64,000 nt of DNA from an uncultured Spartobacteria bacterium (GCA_903919125.1 CAIXGS010000012.1:27706-91705); one strand, 5' to 3'. Shown: positions 10,479-25,535, counted from the first letter of the stretch. Numbers and translations: made by a program. The notes: generated by a model not told the origin, from the sequence alone.

Positions 10479-12602
10479 TCAATCGGCTTCCGTCGTCGAA
10501 AATTCAATTAACAGCGGATCGATTCGGAAGGGATTAGAAAGGGGGAACATAAAGTAAGTGCCACCGGCGCGCACCGGCATCCCAGTGACGATGTGTTCGA
10601 TGATGCCGTCGGAGGTCGTTGCCCTGATCACTCGGCGGTTCCACGAATCAATGGTGATGGTTTCCACTCGGATGATTTTTGGGTAAATGGGTTGTGATGT
10701 GGCCCAGTCCGTATCCCAGAACCGTAGAAGTTCGAGCGTTTGATCCAAAAATTCCGCCGCTTTTCCGCTGAGATCATTTTGGCTATTATCGCTGAGTCGG
10801 TCATGAGCGAATATATTCCTTAGATTTGTGATGCTGTCGAACCCCCGCGGGGCAAGACGTTTTGCCGTGAGTGGTGCGTCAAGGTATCCCCGCTTTTCCG
10901 GTGGCGCATTGTCGAGATCCTTGGCCAACCTTTCCAAAAGACCGAGAAGTTGCCCCAGAGAGAGAGAGCTAAGCTTCCGGCTTTTGACTTCAGGAAGCTG
11001 CAGGAAGTGCTTTTCCGGGCCGCATTTATAGACTTGCAAGCAAATGAATCGGAGAAGGTTTCGGATGCTTGACTCGAGATGACTGCTAGCCTCGATTACC
11101 AGTCCTGCGCGCTCGTTGTATCCGGAAATCGGAAGTTTTGAGCGAATCGCTGTTACATGCTTGTGTGCAAAGGAAATGCCCTCCAATGGTTCTGGGAGAG
11201 GAAACCCAAGCTCAGAAAGGATTAAGACCGCAAGCTCGTCGGTGCTTACCGTTATTTTGGGAGTAAGCTTGTACTTGTCTCGGAGGATTCGACGCAATTG
11301 AGTCGCTCCGAGGCGCCTCAGAATTTCCATTGGATCAAGACGCGCGCAGTATTCTTTGAGGCGGAACAGCCGTTCGCCTTTGTACTGAAGTTCGTCCAGG
11401 AGAAGTTCCAGCTCTTGAGCCTCGGCCTCGGGTAGGGCGCTTAGTAATGCCACGAGGTTGTCCACATGCTGCATTTCGTGCCTGTGCGTATGGTTGGCGG
11501 GTTCGTGAAGCGATCCTCCGATTTTAGGGGAGGCGGGACGACTTGCCGATGAACTGGCTATGGAGGGCCGAGGATTGTGCTCTTCATCTGCGGCTAGGGG
11601 GGCGTTGAGTCCTTGTGTGCGCGCTAATTCAGTCTGGGGATCGGGTTCCCCTATCTGTTTAATCACGAGAGGGATTTTACTGACTCCTCCTTGGACGGCC
11701 TTCGCAAAGTATTTTTGTGCTATGGTCAGGAGCGCCACCACTCCCTGATTAAGGGTCTCAATCAACTCCCCATCGACGGAAATTAGACCGTGGACGACTT
11801 GGTTTCGTGCAAAGATTGCCTGCTCTACGGAAGTATCCAGACCGAGTGGGATCTTTGTTCCTCTTTTAGTGCTCGCTTCGCTGAATTCATGCCAGATGGT
11901 TTTTAATCCCTTTTTCTCTGGAAATTCGATGTTAAACACCCTGGCGCACCCATGCATAATGTCCTCAATGCGCGTGGTGATTGTCCGTATGCGAGTTTGC
12001 TCGTCACAAGCGAAGTCTCCGGGGGAGGTAGCGCTAAAAACATCTATGTGTTTGAAGTTCTCCTCCAGTGTTGGACAGCCTTCCAACGTGGCTACCGTAA
12101 TTTGGATGCCGCTGAAACCCACGTGTGTTGCAAGCCGCGACACCGCCGTCACTATGGCGCTCATGGACATTTTGGCGGTTCCAGTCCCGACCAAGGGCAT
12201 CAATACACGAGGGGGCGCATCTGGGTGTTTTTGCCTGAGAGACAGGATGGCGTCCCCGAGATTGCTGATAAAAGTGTGGGCGTCTGCGATCGAAACACTA
12301 ATTCGGGTGTCGAGATCCAAGGTGATTGCATGAAGCACTGCTATGGCAGGAAGTGCGCCAGCCGCAGTTTCAACGGTGCTTCCCACTTGAATGGGAGTTT
12401 TTAGGGACTCACGGATCGATTGGTTGAGAGCAGCAACTCCTGCGGATTGCCAAATGTCTCTAGCGGAGCCCCCAGCATGGGACAGATAGTTGTCATCGGA
12501 GGAAATTACGGCAAGCCACGGCCCGTCGCTTTTCGCGATGGCGCCAATCTCTCCAACAAGCACCTTATGGCGTAGGGGGTACATTATATCGTTTTTGTCC
12601 AC
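10479..12602 (-). CDS. Macro-domain protein with C-terminal RNxxxH (HEPN-like) motif; listed start is GTG, alternative ATG at 12584
   Basis: N-terminal AVISSDDNYLSHAGGSARDIWQSAG ... GSTVETAAGALPAIAVLH matches the Macro/ADP-ribose-binding fold (compare [25 protein letters not shown]); C-terminal NLRNIFAHDRL gives an RNxxxH motif; no TM segments. Confidence 0.8.
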   Translation of the reverse strand: MDKNDIMYPLRHKVLVGEIGAIAKSDGPWLAVISSDDNYLSHAGGSARDIWQSAGVAALNQSIRESLKTPIQVGSTVETAAGALPAIAVLHAITLDLDTRISVSIADAHTFISNLGDAILSLRQKHPDAPPRVLMPLVGTGTAKMSMSAIVTAVSRLATHVGFSGIQITVATLEGCPTLEENFKHIDVFSATSPGDFACDEQTRIRTITTRIEDIMHGCARVFNIEFPEKKGLKTIWHEFSEASTKRGTKIPLGLDTSVEQAIFARNQVVHGLISVDGELIETLNQGVVALLTIAQKYFAKAVQGGVSKIPLVIKQIGEPDPQTELARTQGLNAPLAADEEHNPRPSIASSSASRPASPKIGGSLHEPANHTHRHEMQHVDNLVALLSALPEAEAQELELLLDELQYKGERLFRLKEYCARLDPMEILRRLGATQLRRILRDKYKLTPKITVSTDELAVLILSELGFPLPEPLEGISFAHKHVTAIRSKLPISGYNERAGLVIEASSHLESSIRNLLRFICLQVYKCGPEKHFLQLPEVKSRKLSSLSLGQLLGLLERLAKDLDNAPPEKRGYLDAPLTAKRLAPRGFDSITNLRNIFAHDRLSDNSQNDLSGKAAEFLDQTLELLRFWDTDWATSQPIYPKIIRVETITIDSWNRRVIRATTSDGIIEHIVTGMPVRAGGTYFMFPLSNPFRIDPLLIEFSTTEAD

Positions 12603-13815: not shown

Positions 13816-15816
13816 TCAGTAGGGAAACGCTTTTTGGGGGTCAACGGTGAGGTCGCCTTGCGTACGGCGGGTCCATTCCTCCCAAAATAAAGGGGCAAAC
13901 GTGTCCGCAGGAATTTTAGATAGAACCTCGAGTTGCAGCTCGTGCGGGAAAAGCGGCGACCGGCCTGCCTGGGTGAAGAGTTCGTTGGCCTGCAGCAGGA
14001 TGCTGAGATAAATCACTTGGATCAAGGGGCCTTCGGCTTTGTTGAGAAGTTCTTCCGCCTTTTTGAAATCCGCCTCTGCTTCAGCAAACTTTCCAGAAGC
14101 GGCGAACAAAGTGCCTCGGTATTTCAGCGAGGTTGCAGTGAGCCAGTTATCGGATGTATTGCGGGGGGAGACTACTTCAAGAGAGGCGAAATTATCTTCG
14201 ACCCTCCCTTGCTGCTTCCATAACCGATAAGCAGCAAGCAATCGATGCCGGCTCAAAAAAGCTAGGCTGACCGGGTCTGCCGCAGCCAGCGCCTCTAGAT
14301 CGCTTCTGACTTGTTTTTCGACCTCCGCGATCTGATCCGGTTCAAAAAGTGCCGTCCACAATGCAGTGCGAACGGTCGACTTGGAGTAATGGTATCGATG
14401 CGAATCAACGGCTCCGCAATTCTGAATCAGTTGCAAAGCGATTTGGGCTGCTTCTTCCAAACAGGCTTTCGACTCCTGCTCGCACCCCGAACCCCTGAGC
14501 GCTTTGAAAAGAAGCACTTCACCACCCAGCGCCCCGATGGCTCCCAGCTTGTGCAAAAGGTAATCCTCTTCTGAACCAAAGGTCGCCGCTTCGATTTCGG
14601 CCACCAATTTTCTCCCCACCTGCTCCGCGTCCTCGAGCATCATGCGGTCCGAAAGGGAGACGACAAACTGATTGATCGCTTGAAAGCGGTCCAATGCGCT
14701 GTGCCTCCAGTTGGTGCCCAAAATTTGGCGGAAGTACGCATCCGCACGTGCGGCATGGCCGGAGTGATTGTCAATCGCAGCGAGAATGACAAGGGTCTTG
14801 AGGTAGGCGGGACGCTGCTTCTTGCCATTGGCATCGAGCCACTGCTGCCATTTTTCCGCACGACCCCTCGCCGTCTCGTAATCCACAGTCTTCCGTTCGA
14901 CTTGCGCTTCCAGGGAGGCGGCTTGCGCCAAGATTGAAGCCTCGCTCAGATGCACACCATGGTGTTCCAACGCCTCTTCCACGATCCCTCGCGCTTCGTT
15001 GAGCGAGGTTCCCCCAGAAAAAAATACGCCTCCCGAAACGCTTGGCGATGATCCGACTGTGAGCCAAAGCTGGACTCCGAGTTTTTCGGCGAGCTTTTGT
15101 TTAGCCCGCAGCCCTTCAACAGGTTTCAGACGTCCTTCGGCAATCGCGCCCGAGGCCAGCCAACTGAGCGCATCCACACCACGGTTCATCCAGTAAAAGG
15201 CGAGCCACACAGGCAGGGCAAAACTTCCTCCAACGAGCACATTCCCCGCGACAGGTTGGACACACGACAAAGTGATCCGCCACCCTTTGTTGCTGAGCGC
15301 TGCTGCGAGCCCCTCCCCGCAATCCTCCCACGATGGAACCCTCTGACAGGCTTCGTCCAAAATTACTATCCCATCTCGAGAACCGCTTTCCGATTTCAAC
15401 ATGAAAGGAACTGGAAATGCTTCCCCAGCGGCGTCCACCACAGGGATCAAACCGTGCGCCTGTTCAAAAGCTGATTTTCTTGCGTTAAACTTCTGCAGCG
15501 TGAGTTTGTCTGAATCGGCGAGAAGCGAGCACAGAGTCAGCACCGTGTGAAAGCTGTCGCGCTTGAAATCCGGTGCGAGGTGTTTCACGGCAATGGACAC
15601 GACCGGCCCTGCGTTCGACAAAGCATCGATAACGGATTTCGGCGTGTTCTTGCCATACAACCACAGTCGACAGAGCAATTCGCCCTCGACGGCAGCCTGC
15701 GCCTCAGGCGAAAGAGCATGGCCGCTCTGTAGCAGACTGACGAGGGCGTCGTCTGAAAAGAATCCGACATCTAAAAGGGAATCCCTCAATCGTTTAAATA
15801 AATCTCGAGGCGTCAT
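13816..15816 (-). CDS. large protein with Lon-protease-like (S16-like) domain and TPR-like helical C-terminus (paralog P1)
   Basis: VGGSFALPVWLAF...SWLASGAIAEGRLKPVEGLRAKQKLAEKLGVQLW resembles the Lon S16 core (DGPSAG...AMTGEITLRG.VLPIGGLKEK...G.K) with Ser and Lys retained; paralogous to 19022..21232. Confidence 0.7.
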   Translation of the reverse strand: MTPRDLFKRLRDSLLDVGFFSDDALVSLLQSGHALSPEAQAAVEGELLCRLWLYGKNTPKSVIDALSNAGPVVSIAVKHLAPDFKRDSFHTVLTLCSLLADSDKLTLQKFNARKSAFEQAHGLIPVVDAAGEAFPVPFMLKSESGSRDGIVILDEACQRVPSWEDCGEGLAAALSNKGWRITLSCVQPVAGNVLVGGSFALPVWLAFYWMNRGVDALSWLASGAIAEGRLKPVEGLRAKQKLAEKLGVQLWLTVGSSPSVSGGVFFSGGTSLNEARGIVEEALEHHGVHLSEASILAQAASLEAQVERKTVDYETARGRAEKWQQWLDANGKKQRPAYLKTLVILAAIDNHSGHAARADAYFRQILGTNWRHSALDRFQAINQFVVSLSDRMMLEDAEQVGRKLVAEIEAATFGSEEDYLLHKLGAIGALGGEVLLFKALRGSGCEQESKACLEEAAQIALQLIQNCGAVDSHRYHYSKSTVRTALWTALFEPDQIAEVEKQVRSDLEALAAADPVSLAFLSRHRLLAAYRLWKQQGRVEDNFASLEVVSPRNTSDNWLTATSLKYRGTLFAASGKFAEAEADFKKAEELLNKAEGPLIQVIYLSILLQANELFTQAGRSPLFPHELQLEVLSKIPADTFAPLFWEEWTRRTQGDLTVDPQKAFPY

Positions 15817-15827
15817 ACTGGGAGTCT

Positions 15828-16784
15828 TTATCGCGTCTCGGTCGTGACATTCAGCGCAGTTCCGTTGAGGACGAGTGAAAACGCGCCTCTGAAGTTTTGC
15901 GCTGGGACGGAACAGGAATGGCCTTTGAACACGCCTAAAAGGGAGCCATCGCCGTCTCGGATTTCACATCCGTCGAGAGCTGTGGACTCGTGCCCAGTTG
16001 CATCGAACACGTTGAACGTCGCGCTGGAACCCGCCTTCGCCCGCGCGTCGACATCAACCGACACGCCTAGTGATTCCACGATAAACGCCTGGTGGAAGCT
16101 GGGTGCCCCCTCGTCAGCGTACAAGCGCACCATCGCTGCGGCCCATTCATCGCCAAAATCGACTTTTATTACGTTTGGTTCGATACGGACCTCTGTTTCC
16201 CTGTCACCCACTGGCGCAATCCATCCCTCAAGCGGGCGTTGCAGATACGCAATTTCATTCGCTAGATTTTTGTGGAATGCGATTCGCGTGTCTAAATAGT
16301 CCAGCGGAGGAATTCCGCGCACGACCTCTTCCGGACATTCATCTCCCTTGCCTCCGAGCCAAGCGGAAAAGTCGCTCAGAATCTGTATTTCCTTCTCGGG
16401 CAGCAGAGTCACAAAACTGCTTAAAGCATCTGCCGGGACCGATAGCTCCAAGCCAACAGCGACGACGGGAGTGAATCCAAGCAGTTCGCGCAGGAGAATC
16501 GCGTCGGACGCGTCGGCCATCGTCGGATCGCTGAAAAGCGGAGCAACGGCAAAAAGTGTGCCTTCGGACAGTTCCATTCGGCGGAGTACCACAACCCAGT
16601 GGGACGCCTGTTCCTCTTCGGAAAGCGCGGAATCTGGGGTCGTTGTCCAAATTTCACCGGGGCTGGCGAAATTCGGTTCTCGGTCTTCTTGAAAGGATTG
16701 CAGCGTCGACTTTGATTCAAGAATAGGGCGCGTCTCGGCTAGTAGCCTCTCGATCGCCATTTCTTCAGAATTCGGAATATTCAT
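15828..16784 (-). CDS. hypothetical protein (318 aa), co-operonic with P1
   Basis: 12-bp spacing to the downstream P1 gene; no recognisable domain. Confidence 0.55.
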   Translation of the reverse strand: MNIPNSEEMAIERLLAETRPILESKSTLQSFQEDREPNFASPGEIWTTTPDSALSEEEQASHWVVVLRRMELSEGTLFAVAPLFSDPTMADASDAILLRELLGFTPVVAVGLELSVPADALSSFVTLLPEKEIQILSDFSAWLGGKGDECPEEVVRGIPPLDYLDTRIAFHKNLANEIAYLQRPLEGWIAPVGDRETEVRIEPNVIKVDFGDEWAAAMVRLYADEGAPSFHQAFIVESLGVSVDVDARAKAGSSATFNVFDATGHESTALDGCEIRDGDGSLLGVFKGHSCSVPAQNFRGAFSLVLNGTALNVTTETR

Positions 16785-16815
16785 AGGTCTGTAGTTTTAG
16801 GAAGAGCCCGAATTG

Positions 16816-18015
16816 CTAAATTTCCGAAATTTTGTGCTCAAGAGCGGTGTTCGACGGAGTTTGCTCTGAGTTATCGCCGCCGATGGAAGCTGAGGAGGTC
16901 AACGCTCCCCCGCAGTGATGGCGACAATGTTTCTCTGCTGCGTCCACAGCTTGTCGTCGGAGTGTTTCCTTCCAAAAGTTGAAGGCGATCCGCTCCTCCA
17001 GTGTCATGTGTAGTTTGTAGGACTCAAACTCCTCGCGCTTCAGGATATAATCATCCTCCTCAACATACTTGTAATCAACAAAGTCCGGAAGATAGGTGAC
17101 TAAAATTTTTGCGATTTTTTTTGTTTTCTCTCCAATCCTCCGAGCGTCGCCTAGTCCGGCGAGGATTACCGCGTCACCCAGTACGCGTTTCGGGTAAAAG
17201 TAATTGACATAAACGTCGCACAGTTTTTCCGCGCACAGCCGTTCTCCAATTAACTCACCTCTCTCGTAAATCTGTCCTTCCAGAATTTTTGTGACGTAGT
17301 CGGAAGGTCTTTCATCCTCAGAATTACCCACATCAAAGTCGACCTCGTCTTCGGAATCGCTTCCTTTTGAAATTCTGACAACCTTTAAGAGCGATGTTTT
17401 TATACACATCGCTTCGTGGATCAGCTTCATCTGAAGCGGGCAGTCCACATTGCCCAATAATTCCATCACGAACGCCTTCGCCTGAGTCGGCGCCACCAAT
17501 TTGCGTCCCTCATGAGCAGGCGGCGGGATATGCTCCATTTTCGCAAGCGCTTTCACAAAGCGGAGGTCGTTGCTCCTCTCACATGGCCGCTGATTCGCGG
17601 CAGACGCTGGGGACCACCACAATTCGTCGGCATGCTTTGGCCTCCCCACATTGCCCATGAAGACCTGTTTGCTTTTCTGCAGGTCCAGAAGCGCTTCTCG
17701 GCAGATATCCCATACTTCAGCCGATGCTGGATCGCTTAATTTCTTGAGTAACCGGCCCATCTGCATCCTAACCCCGGCCCTGTTGTTTAGCAGCACGTTG
17801 CGTGTACGCTGAATGTCCGCGAGGAAATCGTGGGCGAGATCCTCGCGCGTCAGTTTGGCGGCGCCTCCTTCCTTGCCACGCAGCACATGATCGGCGACGT
17901 CTTTTAACTCCCGGTAAAATTCGAGAAACGAAGCGTAGGAGGCATCCGACGGCGTGATGTCACTGTAATGACCGGCCACATAATCGTGAAAGAACTTGTT
18001 CCAGTTTAGAGCCAT
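16816..18015 (-). CDS. hypothetical protein (399 aa), first gene of the P1 operon
   Basis: 32-bp spacing to the next gene on the same strand; acidic central stretch; no recognisable domain. Confidence 0.55.
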   Translation of the reverse strand: MALNWNKFFHDYVAGHYSDITPSDASYASFLEFYRELKDVADHVLRGKEGGAAKLTREDLAHDFLADIQRTRNVLLNNRAGVRMQMGRLLKKLSDPASAEVWDICREALLDLQKSKQVFMGNVGRPKHADELWWSPASAANQRPCERSNDLRFVKALAKMEHIPPPAHEGRKLVAPTQAKAFVMELLGNVDCPLQMKLIHEAMCIKTSLLKVVRISKGSDSEDEVDFDVGNSEDERPSDYVTKILEGQIYERGELIGERLCAEKLCDVYVNYFYPKRVLGDAVILAGLGDARRIGEKTKKIAKILVTYLPDFVDYKYVEEDDYILKREEFESYKLHMTLEERIAFNFWKETLRRQAVDAAEKHCRHHCGGALTSSASIGGDNSEQTPSNTALEHKISEI

Positions 18016-18034
18016 AAAAGTCGCGGTAAAAAGC

Positions 18035-18493
18035 CTAGCGAAGCTTGTCTAGGAGGATACCTGCATCTTCCAAGAGTTCGGCGCGCAGTCGTTGGACGGA
18101 TTCCATGCCAACCCTCAAATGCGACATCGGAATACGGATCGCCATCGGAAGCAGGATCCAAGATAGCTTTCGGATTGCCGTGCCCGCCGTGTACTTAACA
18201 GGCAATGTTTCATGCGGCAGTTCCAAACAGTACCGCAGTGCTGCGGCGTCCGGTTGCTTGCTGGTGATGGGTGACATTGACACGGTGTTCCCGGAAAACC
18301 CTTCGGATCGCCGAGTCCGCACCATGGCAAAGTGCGGTGCTCCTCCTGCGAAACACGGGATCGGACCGTAATAAATGCATCCAAACTGAGGAGGAAACGC
18401 TTCGAAGCAAGAGGGGTTCATTCCTCGTGAATGGATGCGTTTATCCACATCATAATCTTCGCTATCAGATAGATCGCCCTGATAAATATGCAC
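18035..18493 (-). CDS. questionable ORF (152 aa)
   Basis: Overlapped by ORFs of similar length on both strands; no domain; possibly non-coding. Confidence 0.2.
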   Translation of the reverse strand: MHIYQGDLSDSEDYDVDKRIHSRGMNPSCFEAFPPQFGCIYYGPIPCFAGGAPHFAMVRTRRSEGFSGNTVSMSPITSKQPDAAALRYCLELPHETLPVKYTAGTAIRKLSWILLPMAIRIPMSHLRVGMESVQRLRAELLEDAGILLDKLR

Positions 18494-18730
18494 AAAAACT
18501 TTATGGTAATAAGACGAGTTTACCTGATTTCATTCGGTGCGAATTCATCAATCTCCACTAGTCTTCATTGCGTGTTGACGTGAGTAACATTTGGAATGAT
18601 TGGCGTCCGTACAAGTAAAATTAAGTTAATTTACAATGGCGCAACTCTTCATCGCACTTCATGCGCAATGAATTAAGTTGCAGTTACTTTTTCTTGCTGT
18701 GCAGTTGCTGCAGAGCGTCAACCCAAATCG

Positions 18731-18976
18731 TCATGCTGCAATGGAGGGATGGTCGATTCTCCTCCGAGCGAATGCGAGGCACGCCTTGATGTCATCCACT
18801 TCAATGTCCGGCATTTCCTCGACAATTTGGTCCATGCTTAAGCCTGCCGCGAGCAGGTCGAGAACATCCCCCACCCTGATACGCATACCCCTGATGCAGG
18901 GGCGCCCGCCGCACTGTTCTGGGTTGAATGTGATGCGTTCAAGAAGCGCTTCCATGAGATAACGATACACCAGCAC
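18731..18976 (-). CDS. DUF433-family small protein (antitoxin-like), apparently solo
   Basis: CGGRPCIRGMRIRVGDVLDLLAAGLSMDQIVEEMPDIEVDDIKACLAFA matches the DUF433 pattern (cGGkP.I.GTRI.V..VL..LA.G.S.eeIl..YP.Lt.edI.aAL.YA). Confidence 0.75.
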   Translation of the reverse strand: MLVYRYLMEALLERITFNPEQCGGRPCIRGMRIRVGDVLDLLAAGLSMDQIVEEMPDIEVDDIKACLAFARRRIDHPSIAA

Positions 18977-19021
18977 TATATCGAGAACAAGGACACATAG
19001 GCACGCCAGTTCCCCCGCCGC

Positions 19022-21232
19022 TTGTATTTTGTATCAAGTTGCGATGTTTTTCCTTTCCTCCTTGGAGGCTGTAGGGGCAGGTTTGCAGAGTATTTCGGAC
19101 TCAATATCCGCCCAAATCCTCACCACAAACCACGCCCCGTTCCCATGCCATCCCCTGACGCCGCCGCAAATTATCCTCATTCTGGCTCGAAAGTCTGTTT
19201 CATGTCAGACGAGGAGCTTGCCAAACATTTGCTTCAGCCCTCTACCGGAGAAACAAGCGACTCAAACGCAGTAGCTGCTGAGGTCCTTTTCAGATTGTGG
19301 CTCTACCGTGGGGGGTGCCCAGATTCGATCAAACAAGCGGCGGCGGCTTTTGGGAAGGAGCACCCCGAATTCTATAGTTTTGTCACCCTCAAGTTGGTTC
19401 CTGTCCGCGGAAAGGCCCAGGGAGAAGATGAGTTAGACGAGGAGTCCGTACTGGAAAAGCGCTCAGGGGAAAACAAAGAGGCAAAACGCGCGGTTCCAAT
19501 TGGCAGCGTCGAAGCGCTTTTAACTGAGCGACTCAGGCAGTTTCGTTCGGCGCATGGCATCATTCCTTTGGTGCTGCACGAAGGCGGCCCTGCCTTTCCC
19601 GTGCCGTTTCAAATCTCTGTGGGAAAGCGTGGCATTCACACGTTTTTAGATGCGGGTGGTACTCCTCTGGATTCTTGGGGGGAACACTTTGCGCCGGTTT
19701 TGGAAATCCTCGAAACAGATTCAGGCGTGAGAATGACCTCGGGCTTCCCAAACGGGGAGGACGACATTGCCTACGAAGAGGGCGGCTTCGCGTTGCCGGT
19801 AGCGCTGGCCCTCGACAACTTGGAAAATTACTTGGAGATCGATCCGCTCAGCGTTTTGGCAACGGGGGCCATCGTGCACGGTCGTGTGGTTTCTGCAAAA
19901 GCTTGCGCCGCAAAAGCTGCGCTCGCCCGTAAAATGGGAGTGGAGCTTTGGGTCCAGCCAGACCCTTGCGACCACGACACGAACGCTCCGCATCAAGTCC
20001 TGGCGTTGGGCAACGATCAACCGTTGCTCAAAGCGCTGGAGTTGATCCGCCACAGCCTCGCCGGAATCGGGAAGGCTCGACCGACTGCACGCCACGCACG
20101 CGAAATCATTGCGCGTTACCGTAAAATTCCGCCCTCGAGATTGCGTGACATCCAAAAAGCCATTGTGATGGTTGAGAGTCATTTAAAAGTGCTCGTTGAC
20201 GAAGGAATTGACTATCTCCTACCGACCATTGCGGACGCATACATTCTTTTGGCGTCCCTTCACAATCATACGGGGAATGCGATAGTTGCCGACAAGGTGC
20301 TTGACGACATCCAACCGCACATCAAAGGCGACAAGGTGCGCATGTGTGAACTATATGCCCACAGAGTTGTTGCGCTCACGGACATGGGGCGTCTAGCTGA
20401 TGCGGAAAAGCTCGGCCGCAAGGCTCGTGAGATCGCCGGCACGCTGGATATCCTCGTGCATGGACAGGCGGAGGCTCTCGTTCAAACCACCGGTTCCCTT
20501 GGCGGGGAAGCGCTGCTCCACAAGGCGCTGCGAACCGGCAACGTAGCCGACTCGGACGAGGCCTACGGACTTCTGAACATCACCCTAGACATCACCGAAG
20601 AACTCGCCCAATCCGGTCACCAAACGCCTCATGTGGACGCCGATCTTTGGTACGCAAAAAGTGCGGTGCGCTATGTGCTTTGGCACGCGTATTTCACGCC
20701 AACGAAAATCACGGATCGAGTCAAAGAGTATGAACCGTTCGTCGAGGCGCCGCGTCTGGCGGGGAAGTACGACATCAGCGAGGAGTACCTAAAGCGGACG
20801 CATTTTCTCGGCGGTTACCGCGCTCTATTGGCGGGGAAGCCGCCCGCACATTCAGAGTTTACCACTTGGCCCCTGCCGTCTCTGCAGGACGGCGCGCCGG
20901 AATGGTTGGTCGCAACGGCGTTGAAATATCGCGGTGCGTTAAAGGCGCATTACGGCGATGCCGGCGCCAAGGCGGATTTTGAGGAAGCGGTTAAACTCCT
21001 GCGAGGCAACCAGCACGCCACTTTGCGGGTGATCCTATGGAGCATTGCGGCCGAGGCGAGATTGAGCGGCATCGCCTCACCGATTTTTGAGCGAGTCTTG
21101 GCTGAAGGAATTTACGACGTCGTGGACTATCTGTCCTGGGACGGCTCGATGGCCGGCTTAATCGACAAGTTGCTCAGCGGCAAATTCGGTGACGCGGATC
21201 TCGCAGAGTTCCGACGCAAGTTTGCGTATTAG
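19022..21232 (+). CDS. large protein with Lon-protease-like (S16-like) domain, catalytic Ser position replaced by Gly (paralog P2); likely true start ATG at 19202
   Basis: EEGGFALPVALAL...SVLATGAIVHGRVVSAKACAAKAALARKMGVELWV aligns to the same Lon-like core as P1; shared LWLY N-terminal motif and GIIPLV/AFPVPF block. Confidence 0.7.
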   Translation: MYFVSSCDVFPFLLGGCRGRFAEYFGLNIRPNPHHKPRPVPMPSPDAAANYPHSGSKVCFMSDEELAKHLLQPSTGETSDSNAVAAEVLFRLWLYRGGCPDSIKQAAAAFGKEHPEFYSFVTLKLVPVRGKAQGEDELDEESVLEKRSGENKEAKRAVPIGSVEALLTERLRQFRSAHGIIPLVLHEGGPAFPVPFQISVGKRGIHTFLDAGGTPLDSWGEHFAPVLEILETDSGVRMTSGFPNGEDDIAYEEGGFALPVALALDNLENYLEIDPLSVLATGAIVHGRVVSAKACAAKAALARKMGVELWVQPDPCDHDTNAPHQVLALGNDQPLLKALELIRHSLAGIGKARPTARHAREIIARYRKIPPSRLRDIQKAIVMVESHLKVLVDEGIDYLLPTIADAYILLASLHNHTGNAIVADKVLDDIQPHIKGDKVRMCELYAHRVVALTDMGRLADAEKLGRKAREIAGTLDILVHGQAEALVQTTGSLGGEALLHKALRTGNVADSDEAYGLLNITLDITEELAQSGHQTPHVDADLWYAKSAVRYVLWHAYFTPTKITDRVKEYEPFVEAPRLAGKYDISEEYLKRTHFLGGYRALLAGKPPAHSEFTTWPLPSLQDGAPEWLVATALKYRGALKAHYGDAGAKADFEEAVKLLRGNQHATLRVILWSIAAEARLSGIASPIFERVLAEGIYDVVDYLSWDGSMAGLIDKLLSGKFGDADLAEFRRKFAY

Positions 21233-24200
21233 AGAAGAAGTTCACTCCGCACTCCAACCGCACGTTTTCATGAACCTTAACGCATTTTTAGCGCAGCACA
21301 ACTTGAACGCATTAAACGGGAAACTACCGTTTAAATCGGCTGATGAGTTGCGATCCCTCTTTCCCGAGGGCAATACTTTAGATCAGTTGCAACTTCTCGG
21401 TTTGGAGGAGCGAAAGTTAAAAAGGGCGGTCGAGACCCTGCCCTTTCGAAGCAATCTTCCGACGCCGCTGGCTCTTTCATTGAAGGAGTTTCATCTATGC
21501 ACCAGCGGTGCCGAGTCGCTTTGGATGGCGTGCAATTTTTTGGAGATCGTTCTGAAATTTTGTTTCGCGGCTGCAATTGCCGAAAGAACAGAGACTTGTG
21601 GAGCGTTGGTAATGCCCGAATCTCTGGTGGATCTGATAAGCGAACGGATTGACACGCCTGGACTGGGAGAGTGGCTCAAACTTACTGAGAAAGCTGTCGA
21701 AAACGTGGGAACTTGGAATTCAAACACCCCGCTACAGAAGGAGCTTCTCAACACGGTTGAGAAGGTGCGCGTTCTTAAGGTAACCCACGGAATGTGGGAT
21801 ACTCGAAATCGTCTTGCGCACGGAGGATGGTTCAGGCGGTCTCCGGTCGATGTTGACATTTGGAGGGGGCCGTTTCTTGATTTTGTCGCGAAGGATCTAA
21901 TTTGGTTGGAGCGGGCCGAGCTTCTTGCTGGGGCTGGAGACAAGGTTTGGCTTTTTCGGGGCGAGACGGCGTCTGTGTATCATTCGTGGAACCATTGGCG
22001 GCGGGGTGCAATTCACGCCGGGATGTGCCGCATAATTTCGAGCAATCTTGGGGCTGATTTGGACGTCAGTCCCTTCGCTGCCACAAGTCCCGCAGTTCCC
22101 CTTCCTCTGATGTATGCGCGCTGGAAAGGCAGTTGCATAGAGTACATCAGCTATGGCGGATTGGTGGAATGGGTAAAGGAGCCTAATCGACTAAATAACG
22201 ATTGTTTCCGCAAAAACTTTATTCGCCCATCGTTTAAGTGGCTTTCAACTCCTTTTCCTGACTTTCGAGACAAAGGACAAGACGCCATTTCACAAACGGA
22301 GTCTTGCCGATTTTTGGTTAATATAGTGGACCAACGAATCAAAAAAGGCGGCGGAGGTATTCTTTGGGTGGATGGAGTCGAGGGCAGTGGCAAGTCCACG
22401 ATAATGGCTCATCTAGCGAAAAGACGTATCGATCAGCGTGATCTTGGTAAAGTGCTTACATTCGCGTACCGCTTTGAAAGCTCTTCCTTTTTAAGCCGCG
22501 CAGAGTATTTTTTACATTATATCTATCTGCGTCTGTCATCGGCTCATTGGAATCCATCCACTCAAAAATGGAGCGTATCCAAGGGAACAAACGAAGCGTT
22601 CGATCCGGCCTGCACAGTATCTGCGGAAGACATTCTGGATCTGTTCAAAAAAAAGACTGAGGATCCGCTGAGTATGATGCTGTTTGTCGTAGACGGCATC
22701 GATGATATGATCGCCAAGCACTATTGGTTCTTGGCTGAGGTCTTATCCCCTCTAACCAAAGATAGTAGAATTCTCTTTGTCGTGTCAGGCATGCACGGGA
22801 CGCCGGTTGCGTACAATTTTCGGATGAATGGGGCTTCCTCTGTTTTCCGCGACGGTTTGCCTCCTTTGACGTTAAGGGAATTTACTTCTGTGCTGTGCAC
22901 GGCATGCGGTGACTCTAGCACGAAATTGTTGGACCTCCAAACTCAGGCCGAACGCGAGAGCCACGCATTCGCGGAAAACCCAGAAGGAGTTGCGGGGGAG
23001 GAGGAAAGAAAATTGTTGGAGCTCCAAACTCGGGCCGAACGCAAGAGCCACGAATTCGCTGAAAACCCAGAACGAGTCGCGAGGGAAGAGAAAAGAATAC
23101 ACTCGTTTGGCTTTTTGGCAGAGGCCCATCGAAAAGGGAAGGGTTTACCTCTTTATGCATCCTACCTAGCCGAAGATTTGCGGTCGGGCGTGATCAAAAT
23201 CGGAGAAGTTGATGCCCTGCCTGAGGGCATTGAAGGTTACCATAACCTCCAGCTTGCTCGAACGGGTGTTTTAGAAATGCTCAGCCCCCTGCCTGCAAGC
23301 GCTCTTCGAGCGGCTTTTGGTGGCTTTGTGGCAGCCACTGAAATGCGTCTTGAAGGAAATCGGACCGTTGATGCCCGAGGAAAAGACGCGGCTCGGGCGT
23401 TGATTCAACCCGTTGATGAATATCTTGCGCGGGCCTCGGTACTCGCACTCATGGCTACGGATTCCAATGCCGTTACGGTGGATGAAATCAGCCAGCGTTT
23501 GGGGCAAACTGTGTTGCGAGGGCAGAACGCCGAGGAGCGCTCCGCGGTGTTGGAGCGCGCATTGGAAGCCGTTTCGCCCATGCTCAAAATGGCTCCAATC
23601 GATGAATCTGGACGAGAGGGGTTTGAGCTGGCGAACCAGTCTATTCGCCGGCATTTGAATTCACTCCCTGGGATCCAGCAGATGGCGCACCGGTTCAAGC
23701 GACGCTCGGACGATGCTCCGCCCTCGGAACCCCGCGAGCCTAAACGGGTGGATGATATTCCGCAATGGGAACGACCGAGGGAAGATAGGATTGACGATAG
23801 ACCATTCGAGGAACGGCGAAATACGTCCGAAATGGAAGAGCGCGTGGCCGCGTGCATCAGTCGCTTAGAGAGCATTAAGCGTTGTTCTGAAGTATCGGAG
23901 TTCGACTTAGACCTTTACGGCAGCGGGTCCAATGACTGGGTGGAACATTTTTTTGACGGAACCATAGCCGAGGTAGTTGCCATTCTCCAGAGAGGGAGAT
24001 CTCTCGCATTAACGCCTTCCAAAGCGTTCAAGGCCCTTGGACAGGTGGGAGTGACTTCGGATTTTAAATGGAGTGATCATCTGAGGGATGCGCCGAGCAT
24101 CCTTAGAAATTTCACGTGGAGTGAACCTTCTGTGACGCAACGCTCAATGCACCCCAGTTATCGATACCATTTGCACCCCAGTTATCGATACCATTTCGGG

Positions 24201-24557
24201 AAGGACTGGTACCAGAGGTCGTGGGATCTTGATAGGGGAACTAGTGCGGGCGGAAATGCTTTTGCATTAATAAGTTATATTGACTTTCAATTGAACAGCT
24301 GGGTGAGGAGAGTGTGCCGTGCCGAGAATGATGGTGTAACAGTTTATAAAATTGCTAATTCCCGAGAACTCGAATTTGTGTGCGGCGCGGTAGCCGACAT
24401 TCTAGATTTGGTAAGGGATGGAGCAGATTTGTCTGGGCTTGATGCTTTCCCTGGGGCCGTTCATCTCAAAAGCCGAGAAAATCAATTTTCTTTAGCTAGA
24501 ATTTTTTCGATCGAGTTCGTTTTCAGGGACCTTCCAGTACGCGTCTCTATAGATTAA
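21189..24557 (+). CDS. STAND-type P-loop NTPase (about 1100 aa) with unknown N-terminal domain and repetitive C-terminal region; likely true start ATG at 21270
   Basis: Walker A ILWVDGVEGSGKST and Walker B-like LMLFVVDGIDDM; 37-bp spacing after P2; lower GC than the backbone. Confidence 0.75.
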   Translation: MTRISQSSDASLRIREEVHSALQPHVFMNLNAFLAQHNLNALNGKLPFKSADELRSLFPEGNTLDQLQLLGLEERKLKRAVETLPFRSNLPTPLALSLKEFHLCTSGAESLWMACNFLEIVLKFCFAAAIAERTETCGALVMPESLVDLISERIDTPGLGEWLKLTEKAVENVGTWNSNTPLQKELLNTVEKVRVLKVTHGMWDTRNRLAHGGWFRRSPVDVDIWRGPFLDFVAKDLIWLERAELLAGAGDKVWLFRGETASVYHSWNHWRRGAIHAGMCRIISSNLGADLDVSPFAATSPAVPLPLMYARWKGSCIEYISYGGLVEWVKEPNRLNNDCFRKNFIRPSFKWLSTPFPDFRDKGQDAISQTESCRFLVNIVDQRIKKGGGGILWVDGVEGSGKSTIMAHLAKRRIDQRDLGKVLTFAYRFESSSFLSRAEYFLHYIYLRLSSAHWNPSTQKWSVSKGTNEAFDPACTVSAEDILDLFKKKTEDPLSMMLFVVDGIDDMIAKHYWFLAEVLSPLTKDSRILFVVSGMHGTPVAYNFRMNGASSVFRDGLPPLTLREFTSVLCTACGDSSTKLLDLQTQAERESHAFAENPEGVAGEEERKLLELQTRAERKSHEFAENPERVAREEKRIHSFGFLAEAHRKGKGLPLYASYLAEDLRSGVIKIGEVDALPEGIEGYHNLQLARTGVLEMLSPLPASALRAAFGGFVAATEMRLEGNRTVDARGKDAARALIQPVDEYLARASVLALMATDSNAVTVDEISQRLGQTVLRGQNAEERSAVLERALEAVSPMLKMAPIDESGREGFELANQSIRRHLNSLPGIQQMAHRFKRRSDDAPPSEPREPKRVDDIPQWERPREDRIDDRPFEERRNTSEMEERVAACISRLESIKRCSEVSEFDLDLYGSGSNDWVEHFFDGTIAEVVAILQRGRSLALTPSKAFKALGQVGVTSDFKWSDHLRDAPSILRNFTWSEPSVTQRSMHPSYRYHLHPSYRYHFGKDWYQRSWDLDRGTSAGGNAFALISYIDFQLNSWVRRVCRAENDGVTVYKIANSRELEFVCGAVADILDLVRDGADLSGLDAFPGAVHLKSRENQFSLARIFSIEFVFRDLPVRVSID
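22922..23096 (+). repeat. in-frame tandem duplication, 2 x about 87 bp (29-aa unit KLLDLQTQAERESHAFAENPEGVAGEEER)
   Basis: Two adjacent copies about 90% identical at nucleotide level inside the STAND gene. Confidence 0.7.
24149..24196 (+). repeat. perfect 24-bp tandem duplication x2 (HPSYRYHL HPSYRYHF) inside the STAND gene
   Basis: gcaccccagttatcgataccattt occurs twice in direct succession. Confidence 0.85.
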
Positions 24558-24635: not shown

Positions 24636-25535
24636 ATGAGTGTGCACCTCAAGCACTCACTTATGCTCAACGAAGAAATCGACCACATCATCGACGGTAT
24701 CTGCCAGGAACACGGCTCATTGTCTGACGCTTTTGATTTTCCTGAAGAACCTGAGTCCGACGAGACTCCCAACGAACGCGACGAGTTCCCCGAAGACGAC
24801 GAATCCGACCTCCCGCCAGATTCTGGGATTGGCGGGACTTTCCGGCCGGGAGGCGGTCTCGGCCGCTTCGTAAACATGTATCCGGCCAATGCCCGGGGGG
24901 CGTGCCGGCCTCATTTCCTCGTGATCTTTCCTGCCGATCCTTTGCGCAAACATCGCAAGGTGACGGCGCACGAAAGACAGCGCCGGACCATCTTGTATTT
25001 CCAAAACGCTCTGCGCGCCATGCACCGTTGGGCCGCAAATTGTGGGGGTAAAGACGTGATCCTGCTCACGGAGCAATGGCCCGTTGCGCCCGGAATCACC
25101 GAGTCTCCCCTCTGGGCAAATACCTTGGCCACACACGGCGCTCAGCATGAAGACTGGCGGGTCACCCTGCGCGGATTGCTTCGCAGCCTCCACCGCCGAG
25201 CGTCTTCGGATCCAGCCTTGGCGCAGTTGACGGGGCTTATCCGTGATTTGGAGATTCACTGGGATCATGGTTGGTGGCCGCATCGGCACTGGAGGCATTG
25301 GGTTGAAACCGTGAATAGAGCGCCGATTCCGAGCCAGTTTAAGAAGAGGCTACTTCAAGGTTTACCTTACAAGTCCCACGGGTTGATTGATCCGGCGCTG
25401 ACTTTTCATGAGAACCTTCAGGCCTTCCGCGAGATGCATCCAGACGTGAACTTTCATATCCGCCTCGCAGCGGTGCCTCATCAAAAGCCAGCTCGATTCC
25501 GCTTCGTGGGCGGCGAACCCTGGTCACGAGTTTAG
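24636..25535 (+). CDS. hypothetical protein (299 aa), downstream of the STAND gene
   Basis: ATG start; acidic N-terminal segment; no recognisable domain. Confidence 0.5.
   Translation: MSVHLKHSLMLNEEIDHIIDGICQEHGSLSDAFDFPEEPESDETPNERDEFPEDDESDLPPDSGIGGTFRPGGGLGRFVNMYPANARGACRPHFLVIFPADPLRKHRKVTAHERQRRTILYFQNALRAMHRWAANCGGKDVILLTEQWPVAPGITESPLWANTLATHGAQHEDWRVTLRGLLRSLHRRASSDPALAQLTGLIRDLEIHWDHGWWPHRHWRHWVETVNRAPIPSQFKKRLLQGLPYKSHGLIDPALTFHENLQAFREMHPDVNFHIRLAAVPHQKPARFRFVGGEPWSRV

What the first reader, a model, noticed from the sequence alone, without database searches (positions are those of the whole stretch)
13816..21232. Two divergent operons each carrying a paralog of a large Lon-protease-like protein, one with the catalytic Ser position lost
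The 666-aa (minus strand) and about 680-aa (plus strand) proteins share an LWLY N-terminal motif, a GIIPLV/AFPVPF block and a segment that aligns with the Lon S16 core: GGSFALPV / EGGFALPV versus DGPSAG, and ATGAI.GR.....K...A versus AMTGEITLRG.VLPIGGLKEK. P1 keeps Ser and Lys, while P2 has Gly at the Ser position but keeps Lys. That gives an active/pseudo-protease pair, each followed by or following different partners, with a TPR-like tail. Lon-like domains occur in phage-defence and stress systems (for example BrxL), but this gene family and arrangement are not something I recognise.
Basis: partly seen in the sequence, partly recalled or inferred. Interest (0 to 1): 0.75.

Follow-up and report, generated by a model that had tools for sequence, protein, structure and literature searches.

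The report
Lon-like protease sensors, one inactive
Two neighbouring genes in a bacterial defence island encode related proteins that join a Lon-type protease domain to a ligand-sensing repeat domain, one with an intact catalytic serine and one without; they belong to an undescribed family that probably switches on immune or stress responses by cutting a partner protein.

Summary
P1 (13816-15816, minus strand, 666 aa) and P2 (19145-21232, plus strand, 695 aa) are full-length paralogs (30% identity, E 3e-40). Neither has a Pfam, NCBIfam or PADLOC assignment beyond sub-threshold TPR matches.

The family has at least 207 clusters at 50% identity. Ser and Lys are almost universal. The only Ser-less lineage is the P2 clade (Gly214 here), and it is under purifying selection.

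The C-terminal half is a Rap/MalT-like TPR sensor. In relatives, STAND NTPases replace it.

P1 closes a conserved four-gene cassette (A-B-C-P). Its neighbour C is fused to the protease in other genomes. P2 heads a STAND NTPase operon here and DISARM-like operons elsewhere.

The likely function is a ligand-triggered signalling protease that works like CalpL, paired with a non-catalytic paralog. The substrate, trigger and output are all inferred.

The parts
13816..15816 (-). P1: 666-aa protein with an N-terminal helical domain, a Lon-fold Ser-Lys protease domain and a TPR sensor. It is the predicted active protease and the last gene of the A-B-C-P cassette.
   Evidence: ORF. AlphaFold model with pLDDT 87. 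Ten close homologs. Cassette conserved in L001, L009-L013 and L018.
15460..15816 (-). P1 N-terminal all-helical domain (residues 1-119) carrying the conserved E..R.WLY motif.
   Evidence: Secondary structure of the model. E46, R50, W52 and L53 are nearly invariant in alignment A1.
14947..15459 (-). P1 Lon-fold protease domain (residues 120-290). Ser198 is the codon at 15223-15225 and Lys239 the codon at 15100-15102.
13819..14946 (-). P1 C-terminal TPR-like alpha-solenoid (residues 291-666), the predicted ligand sensor.
15828..16784 (-). C: 318-aa cassette protein with no known domain. It is the candidate substrate or partner of the protease.
   Evidence: Conserved directly upstream of P. Homologous to the N-terminal part of C-protease fusion proteins (hhalign prob 79%, E 1.6e-5). 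A C-like domain is fused to 6 family members.
16816..18015 (-). B: 399-aa cassette protein of unknown function.
   Evidence: Conserved in L001, L009-L013 and L018. No Pfam or PDB sequence hit. hhalign against RpoE is negative.
18035..18493 (-). A: 152-aa first gene of the cassette, unknown function.
   Evidence: 67-94% identical homologs at the same position in L001 and L010-L012. No Pfam hit.
19145..21232 (+). P2: 695-aa paralog with the same three-domain layout. The Lon-like domain lacks the nucleophile: Gly214 is the codon at 19784-19786. Lys257 (19913-19915) is kept.
   Evidence: BLASTP against P1 gives E 3e-40. All 11 members of the P2 clade have Gly, or Cys in one case, at the Ser column. 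dN/dS of the Lon-like domain is 0.16. Coordinates.
21270..24557 (+). STAND NTPase (about 1095 aa, NPHP3_N/NACHT-like P-loop), starting 37 nt after the P2 stop codon.
   Evidence: Pfam NPHP3_N E 1.7e-7. The same P2-STAND-299 aa order occurs in L008 at 86-92% identity.
24636..25535 (+). 299-aa protein of unknown function that follows the STAND gene.
   Evidence: 90% identical homolog after the STAND gene in L008. An 84% identical homolog lies divergent to the A-B-C-P1 cassette in L010. No Pfam hit.

Best explanation
P1 and P2 are paralogs in an undescribed family of sensor-coupled Lon-fold Ser-Lys peptidases. [quoted passage not shown] In relatives the TPR solenoid is replaced by a STAND NTPase with WD40 or TPR repeats.

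P1 (Ser198/Lys239) is the catalytically competent member. It is the last gene of a conserved four-gene cassette, A-B-C-P.

Inferred mechanism: binding of a trigger to the TPR domain drives self-association. The trigger is probably a phage-derived or stress-derived protein or peptide. Self-association activates the protease in trans, as in CalpL filaments and Lon oligomers. P1 then cleaves the co-encoded protein C, which is fused to the protease in other genomes. Cleavage releases or activates an output carried by A, B or C.

P2 (Gly214/Lys257) is a conserved non-catalytic paralog at the head of a STAND NTPase operon. It most likely acts as an extra sensor or adaptor. It could co-assemble with an active paralog, or couple to the downstream defence module.

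Shown: the fold, the dyad alignment, the loss of Ser in P2, the family size, the domain architectures, and cassette and fusion conservation.

Inferred: protease activity, the substrate, the trigger, oligomerisation, the defence role, and the role of P2.

Sub-confidences: Lon fold with an aligned dyad 0.9; active signalling or effector protease in a conflict system 0.6; C as substrate 0.4; the proposed P2 role 0.3.
For: Fold and dyad:
- The family profile hits 46 Lon-type PDB sequences at E<0.1. The best is 3e-5, with Ser and Lys aligned to the catalytic residues.
- CalpL S152/K193 align to the family Ser and Lys.

Conservation:
- The only invariant columns in 44 diverse members are G122, S198, G223 and K239.
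- After correcting one- or two-residue alignment shifts, Ser and Lys are kept in nearly all of about 165 domains in which both positions are aligned. The exception is the P2 clade.

Sensor:
- The TPR half matches Rap, MalT domain III, NprR, PlcR and AimR, which are ligand-binding domains.

Family and architectures:
- At least 207 clusters at 50% identity.
- At least 25 of 170 sequences carry a STAND NTPase after the Lon-like domain. These include NACHT, NB-ARC and AAA_16 types. This is the position that effector domains occupy in NLR-like proteins.

Partners:
- The A-B-C-P order recurs at 24-90% identity of the protease.
- C is fused N-terminally to the protease in 6 family proteins, including one C + Lon + STAND polypeptide of 1905 aa.

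P2:
- dN/dS 0.16 in the Lon-like domain, against 0.13 for P1.
- It lies next to an active paralog in the window, L006-L008 and L016.
- It is followed by a STAND NTPase (window, L008) or by SNF2 / Eco57I-type methylase / DEAD-MZB helicase genes resembling DISARM.

Context is rich in defence genes:
- A TIR protein, a sub-threshold macro-domain match and a STAND NTPase in the window.
- Cas10/Cmr3 and a VWA-PP2C-kinase set in L009.
- RloB and a PLD-helicase elsewhere.
Against: - No biochemical data exist for any member.
- Dyad geometry could not be measured. The evidence is profile alignment plus helix N-terminal placement in the model.
- Pfam Lon_C does not match either protein.
- A, B and C have no recognisable domains, so the output is unknown.
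- A/A' and B/B' of the two cassette subtypes are not detectably homologous. The cassette may therefore be less uniform than gene order suggests.
- In L003-L005, P2 has no active paralog within 10 kb upstream. This argues against obligate pairing in cis.
- The DISARM-linked loci share near-identical downstream genes, so they are few independent observations.
- No PADLOC model matches P1, P2, A, B or C. The defence association rests on neighbourhood only.
Confidence: 0.6

Rival explanations
1. A true CalpL-type transcriptional switch. P1 cleaves an anti-sigma-like protein (C) to free a sigma-like factor (B), which reprogrammes transcription rather than killing the cell.
For: - The domain order matches CalpL: N-terminal domain, Lon domain, sensor.
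- CalpL appears in both the fold and the profile hit lists.
- Partner genes are co-encoded in one operon.
- One cassette sits directly upstream of Cas10/Cmr3.
- By eye, B has segments resembling sigma regions 2 and 4, and C has a GEIW...VAPL pattern reminiscent of MazF/PemK. This is my own reading of the sequences, not a test.
Against: - There is no SAVED or CARF domain.
- B and B' give no Sigma70 Pfam hit even at E<=10 and no PDB hit. hhalign against E. coli RpoE gives probability below 1%.
- The C N-terminal profile against E. coli MazF gives probability 0.1% and no PDB hits.
- The Lon-like domain is no closer to CalpL than to archaeal LonB.
Confidence: 0.15
2. The Lon-like domains are non-proteolytic assembly or nucleic-acid-binding modules, as in RadA/Sms and ComM. 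Neither protein would be a protease.
Against: The Ser and the Lys are two of only four invariant columns across 44 diverse members at about 22-36% identity to P1. Such conservation is hard to explain without catalysis. The sequence profile hits catalytic Lon domains at E 3e-5 but RadA only at E 0.7-1.4.
Confidence: 0.1
3. A housekeeping regulatory protease or TPR scaffold unrelated to conflict systems. The defence-gene neighbours would be coincidental.
For: No PADLOC hit for P1, P2, A, B or C. TPR proteins have many housekeeping roles. The promoter and terminator scan was uninformative.
Against: - The distribution is sparse: only 10 hits were returned for each clade in a 5.8-billion-protein index.
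- Flanking genes vary around a conserved cassette.
- The same domain is repeatedly fused to STAND NTPases.
- Neighbours include TIR, STAND, Cas10, DISARM-like and toxin-antitoxin genes.
Confidence: 0.05

Closest known systems
CalpL (Lon-SAVED protease of type III CRISPR; CalpL-CalpT-CalpS system)
   Same: Stand-alone, ATPase-less Lon-fold Ser-Lys protease domain. It is preceded by a helical N-terminal domain and followed by a ligand-sensor domain. It is encoded with small partner proteins, and the dyad residues align. It is the best model for how P1 may work: ligand-induced assembly followed by site-specific cleavage of a partner.
   Different: The sensor is a TPR solenoid, not SAVED, so no cyclic-oligoadenylate sensing is expected. 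The partners show no detectable MazF, DUF2080 or ECF-sigma similarity. Only one locus is next to a type III CRISPR system. Sequence similarity to CalpL is marginal (E 1e-3) and no better than to LonB.
Lon proteases (MEROPS S16: LonA, LonB, LonC)
   Different: No AAA+ module and no Lon N-domain. Pfam Lon_C is not matched. Fusion is to TPR or STAND sensors. The context is a defence island rather than proteostasis.
Bacterial NLR-like / STAND defence proteins with N-terminal effector domains (Avs, bNACHT), and effector-plus-TPR sensors such as Dsr1
   Same: In at least 25 relatives the same helical + Lon-like module sits N-terminal to NACHT, NB-ARC or AAA_16 NTPases with WD40 or TPR repeats. P1 and P2 resemble the NTPase-less effector-plus-sensor layout. 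The P1 TPR resembles MalT domain III.
   Different: P1 and P2 themselves have no NTPase. In the papers I could search, I found no description of a Lon-fold effector among STAND effectors.
BrxL (BREX) and the RadA/ComM Lon-like domains
   Different: Those proteins carry AAA+ or RecA ATPase modules and act on DNA. There is no BREX context here. P1 keeps the dyad.

Membership tests
Lon protease S16 proteolytic-domain superfamily | Lon proteolytic-domain fold | tested here: met
Lon protease S16 proteolytic-domain superfamily | Ser-Lys catalytic dyad at the canonical positions | tested here: met
   For P1, the profile alignment puts Ser198 on the Lon Ser and Lys239 on the Lon Lys. Both are invariant in 44 diverse members. 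For P2 the feature is NOT met: Gly214 replaces the Ser and Lys257 is kept. Three-dimensional geometry was not measured.
Lon protease S16 proteolytic-domain superfamily | Match to the curated sequence model (Pfam Lon_C / S16) | tested here: not met
   No Lon_C hit for P1 or P2 at E<=1. Nothing in NCBIfam either.
Canonical Lon (LonA/LonB) | AAA+ ATPase module fused upstream of the protease domain | tested here: not met
   Residues 1-119 are an all-helical domain with no P-loop hit.
CalpL / Lon-SAVED | C-terminal SAVED (cyclic-oligonucleotide-binding) domain | tested here: not met
   The C-terminal half is a TPR solenoid. No SAVED hit in Pfam or PADLOC.
CalpL / Lon-SAVED | Partner MazF-like CalpT and ECF-sigma-like CalpS | tested here: not met
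   hhalign of C against MazF gives probability 0.1%, and the C profile finds no PDB hits. B against RpoE gives probability below 1%, and B has no Sigma70 Pfam hit. This is a sequence-level test only.
CalpL / Lon-SAVED | Genomic association with type III CRISPR-Cas | tested here: inconclusive
   One cassette (L009) lies directly upstream of Cas10/Cmr3. The window and the other loci show no cas genes nearby.
STAND / NLR-like defence NTPases | Central NACHT / NB-ARC type P-loop NTPase in the same polypeptide | tested here: not met
   Absent from P1 and P2. Present in at least 25 relatives and in the separate gene at 21270-24557.
TPR ligand-sensor domains (RRNPP / MalT domain III type) | TPR-like alpha-solenoid fold | tested here: met
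DISARM (class 1) | drmD (SNF2), drmMI (methylase), drmA (helicase + DUF1998) gene set next to the gene | tested here: not met
   Not present in the window. P2 orthologs in L003-L007 precede SNF2, Eco57I-type and DEAD/MZB genes. Calling that set DISARM rests on my knowledge of the system, not on a PADLOC run.

The most novel reading that the evidence does not exclude
The active and inactive Lon-TPR paralogs form a sensor/executor pair, analogous to paired plant NLRs or NAIP-NLRC4. The Ser-less P2 would be a dedicated receptor that hetero-oligomerises with the active protease (P1/P3). On sensing an invader it would trigger cleavage of protein C. This would link a proteolytic signal to whichever defence module (STAND NTPase, DISARM-like, type III CRISPR) lies next to it. 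It would be a portable proteolytic 'alarm' cassette of a kind not yet described.
Probability: 0.15. Interest if true: 0.85.

Novelty: new variant of a known kind. Interest (0 to 1): 0.66.

Why it matters
Signalling proteases are emerging as a major theme in prokaryotic immunity. Examples are CalpL, Craspase/TPR-CHAT, SAVED-CHAT and the proteases that activate gasdermins.

This family would add a Lon-fold protease that is wired to protein- or peptide-sensing TPR domains and to STAND NTPases, rather than to cyclic-nucleotide sensors. It has its own set of three unknown partner proteins and a naturally occurring pseudo-protease paralog.

It offers concrete hypotheses that can be tested now:
- S198A and K239A mutants.
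- C as the substrate.
- P1-P2 interaction.

It also provides a sequence profile for annotating more than 200 currently 'hypothetical' protein clusters, including the N-terminal effector domains of many bacterial NLR-like proteins.

Tried and rejected
1. Direct sequence annotation. Pfam, NCBIfam, PADLOC and single-sequence PDB searches gave nothing for P1 and P2 beyond weak TPR hits. The full-length profile against the PDB also found nothing. Only the domain-restricted, diversity-enriched profile reached Lon.

2. C as a MazF/CalpT-like protein. This was my own by-eye reading. It is rejected at the sequence level: hhalign probability 0.1% against E. coli MazF, and no PDB hits for two different profiles.

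3. B as an ECF-sigma-like protein. This was also a by-eye reading. It is not supported: no Sigma70 Pfam hit in 7 homologs at E<=10, nothing in the PDB, and hhalign against RpoE below 1%.

4. Homology of A with A' and of B with B' between the two cassette subtypes. Not detected.

5. An apparent loss of Lys in 17 family members and of Ser in two more. Inspection showed one- or two-residue alignment shifts, not real losses.

6. The promoter and terminator scan was no better than shuffled sequence.

7. The AlphaFold-database fold library was unavailable.

8. There was no match in the plasmid collection.

9. A profile search for more C homologs returned only close relatives without annotation.

10. 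The genome-collection scan found only one locus.
Full report
1. The observation

The region holds a minus-strand run of four ORFs:
- A: 18035-18493, 152 aa.
- B: 16816-18015, 399 aa.
- C: 15828-16784, 318 aa.
- P1: 13816-15816, 666 aa.

It also holds a plus-strand run:
- P2: ends at 21232.
- A STAND NTPase: 21270-24557.
- A 299-aa ORF: 24636-25535.

The mechanical ORF call starts P2 at TTG 19022. Homolog N-termini and an exact database gene call of 695 aa fix the start at ATG 19145.

P1 and P2 align end to end at 30% identity, E 3e-40.

Between the two gene sets lie a DUF433 gene (18731-18976, minus strand; Pfam E 1e-24) and a 16-codon remnant of its DUF5615 partner (18684-18734). The 'divergent operons' are therefore real but not directly abutting.

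2. What the central domain is

Standard libraries say nothing. Pfam, NCBIfam and PADLOC give only sub-threshold TPR matches. Single-sequence and full-length-profile searches of PDB sequences find no Lon protein.

An AlphaFold2 model of P1, built on a 19-sequence alignment, has pLDDT 87. It shows:
- a helical N-terminal domain (residues 1-119);
- an alpha/beta domain (120-290);
- an alpha-solenoid (291-666).

In a Foldseek search of the whole model, the only non-TPR hit among the listed top 50 was BrxL.

- B. subtilis LonBA, 12.9
- LonC, 12.5
- ComM, 12.4
- RadA, 12.2
- E. coli Lon, 11.9
- CalpL, 11.8
- BrxL, 10.5
- birnavirus VP4, 9.9

The next fold scores only 5.5.

Sequence evidence followed once the profile was restricted to the domain and made more diverse. 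The 19-sequence domain profile has CalpL as its best PDB hit (E 0.033). A 44-sequence profile drawn from the wider family hits 46 Lon-type PDB sequences at E<0.1. M. jannaschii Lon and A. fulgidus LonB score 3e-5, and CalpL scores 1.1e-3.

In these alignments the family motif G-x-S-[FL]-x-L-P lies on Lon 'GDSAT', which holds the catalytic Ser. The motif T-G-...-A-K-x-x-L-A lies on 'TGS...GGVNEK', which holds the catalytic Lys. In the CalpL alignment P1 Ser198 and Lys239 correspond to S152 and K193. A published paper names these as the CalpL dyad (bioRxiv 10.1101/2024.05.08.593097).

I could not access model coordinates. Dyad geometry is therefore inferred from the alignments and from both residues sitting at helix N-termini in the model. 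It was not measured.

3. The family

An exhaustive HMMER search of 1.84 billion cluster representatives with the domain profile found 207 clusters at E<=1e-3, of which 108 were at E<=1e-10.

In 170 aligned domains, Ser198 is present in 154, and the T/S-G motif at 222-223 in every aligned sequence bar one. The 17 apparent Lys losses and two of the apparent Ser losses are one- or two-residue alignment shifts.

In 44 diverse Ser-type members (about 22-36% identical to P1), the only invariant columns are G122, S198, G223 and K239. That pattern is what an active Ser-Lys peptidase would show.

The only lineage that truly lacks the Ser is the P2 clade. It has 11 sequences, with Gly in ten and Cys in one (P0011), and all keep the Lys.

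P2 is not decaying. dN/dS is 0.23 over the whole gene and 0.16 in the Lon-like domain against its 92%-identical ortholog. P1 gives 0.12-0.13.

4. Architectures

Of the 170 sequences, 105 are 600-800 aa, the P1/P2 layout. At least 25 continue into a STAND NTPase. Pfam confirms the following:
- NPHP3_N/NACHT in P0047, P0049, P0117 and P0127, with only a sub-threshold NPHP3_N match in P0084;
- NB-ARC in P0146;
- AAA_16 in P0072;
- WD40 or TPR repeats behind them in P0025, P0100 and P0127.

The helical + Lon-like module therefore occupies the N-terminal position that effector domains hold in NLR-like proteins. One member is fused to a UvrD helicase (P0143).

5. Gene context

Protein P follows A, B and C in L001/L002, L010-L012, L018 and L021/L022, and B and C in L009 and L013, whose records show no A or are cut before it (protease 24-90% identical to P1).

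A second cassette subtype occurs in L006, L008, L021 and L026. It has A' (152-169 aa), B' (265-377 aa) and C'.
- C and C' are homologous (hhalign probability 79%, E 1.6e-5 over 224 columns).
- A/A' and B/B' are not detectably homologous.

In L006 and L008, C' is fused to the N-terminus of a third, Ser-containing paralog of about 1000 aa. Six family proteins carry this C-like domain. One of them, P0049, is C-like + Lon + STAND in a single 1905-aa chain. Such fusions are classic evidence that C and the protease work together physically.

In L026 the protease is a 326-aa protein with no TPR. It is followed by a 495-aa protein, a ClpP-like protease and a HerA-like ATPase.

Context of the P2 clade:
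- In L006/L007, L008 and L016, P2 lies immediately after the C'-protease fusion.
- In the window it is divergent from the P1 cassette.
- In L003-L005 it has no active paralog within 10 kb upstream.
- Downstream of P2 there is either the STAND NTPase plus the 299-aa gene (window, L008) or SNF2, Eco57I-type methylase and DEAD/MZB helicase genes. From my knowledge of the system, that second set looks like class 1 DISARM.

Surroundings are rich in defence genes:
- A TIR + YD-repeat protein and a protein with a weak, sub-threshold macro-domain match in the window.
- Cas10/Cmr3 and a VWA-PP2C-kinase set in L009.
- RloB and a PLD-helicase elsewhere.

Named records are Verrucomicrobiota MAGs (Spartobacteria, Chthoniobacteraceae).

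6. How it most likely works

Shown:
- Lon fold with an aligned and conserved Ser-Lys pair in P1.
- Loss of the nucleophile in a selectively maintained P2.
- A TPR or STAND sensor coupled to the protease domain.
- Conserved partners, with C fused to the protease in some genomes.

Inferred:
- A trigger bound by the TPR domain drives assembly.
- The protease then cleaves C in trans. CalpL, which is activated by filament formation, is the nearest characterised analogue.
- A cleavage product, or A or B, executes the response.
- P2 would be a non-catalytic sensor or adaptor, either for an active paralog or for the adjacent STAND NTPase.

I put 0.9 on the fold and dyad assignment. I put about 0.6 on an active signalling or effector protease in a conflict system, about 0.4 on C as the substrate, and about 0.3 on the proposed role of P2.

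7. Rivals

A literal CalpL-like sigma / anti-sigma switch is attractive, but every sequence-level test failed. It remains possible only if structure reveals what sequence does not.

A purely structural Lon-like domain, as in RadA and ComM, fits P2. It does not fit the invariant Ser and Lys of the rest of the family.

A housekeeping role is unlikely. The distribution is sparse, the flanks vary and the domain is repeatedly fused to STAND NTPases.

8. Comparison with known systems, and novelty

The proteins are members of the Lon-fold superfamily by structure and dyad. They are not canonical Lon: they lack an AAA+ module and do not match Pfam Lon_C. They are not CalpL: they lack SAVED, and CalpT/CalpS-like partners were not detected. 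They are not BrxL.

Searches of the available literature found no description of Lon-fold effectors on TPR or STAND sensors. The 2020 eLife survey of NTP-dependent conflict systems does not contain the word 'Lon'. Neither does the main text of the 2026 Nature STAND survey. This literature set is incomplete.

I rate the finding as a new variant of a known kind: a signalling or effector protease of prokaryotic conflict systems.

Noticed in passing
window 18684-18976 (minus strand); L016 1668-2494: A DUF433 gene (Pfam E 1e-24) is followed by a 16-codon remnant (MTIWVDALQQLHSKKK*) of a DUF5615/PIN-like toxin gene. The intact pair sits between the active paralog and P2 in L016 (DUF5615 Pfam E 3.7e-24). 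This suggests that a rearrangement breakpoint here created the divergent layout in the window.
   Followed up: partly
window 6801-10403 (minus strand): A 1200-aa protein with an N-terminal TIR domain (TIR_2 E 6.7e-15; PADLOC SAVED_TIR-like E 1.2e-8), YD/RHS repeats and a weak C-terminal PDZ match. It is likely another defence or toxin gene.
   Followed up: no
window 10479-12602 (minus strand): A 707-aa protein with a weak macro-domain / ADP-ribose-binding match at its N-terminus (Pfam E 0.004; NCBIfam E 9e-5) and a very weak HEPN hint. It lies next to the TIR protein.
   Followed up: no
window 21270-24557 (plus strand): The STAND NTPase contains two internal near-repeats that are visible in the translation: ...LDLQTQAERESHAFAENPEGVAGEEERK / LLELQTRAERKSHEFAENPERVAREEKR, and HPSYRYHLHPSYRYH. 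It has no recognisable effector or repeat-sensor Pfam domain.
   Followed up: no
window 24636-25535; L008 15587-16486; L010 955-1944: The 299-aa protein with no known domain follows the STAND gene in the window and in L008. In L010 it lies divergent to an A-B-C-P1 cassette that has neither P2 nor a STAND gene. It may belong with the cassette rather than with the STAND gene.
   Followed up: partly
L026 6729-15103: A variant locus: A'(152)-B'(265)-C'(349), then a 326-aa helical + Lon-like protein without TPR (Ser and Lys kept), a 495-aa protein of unknown function, a ClpP-like protease (187 aa) and a HerA/DUF87-like ATPase (988 aa).
   Followed up: partly
P0049 (1905 aa), P0143 (1154 aa), P0011 (676 aa): P0049 joins the C-like domain, the Lon-like domain and a NACHT-type NTPase in one chain. 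P0143 fuses a UvrD helicase to the Lon-like domain. P0011, the 92%-identical P2 ortholog, has Cys rather than Gly at the nucleophile position.
   Followed up: partly
L009 565-16518: The cassette (B-C-P, 51% identical P1 ortholog) is flanked upstream by a VWA-PP2C-Ser/Thr kinase trio and a BNR-repeat protein. Downstream lie Cas10/Cmr2 and Cmr3 of a type III-B CRISPR system.
   Followed up: no
L001/L002 and L003/L004: The same two metagenome samples (JGI 3300034012 and ERZ27272050) each hold one contig with a P1-type cassette and another contig with P2 plus DISARM-like genes. The 'lone' P2 loci may therefore have an active paralog elsewhere in the same genome.
   Followed up: no
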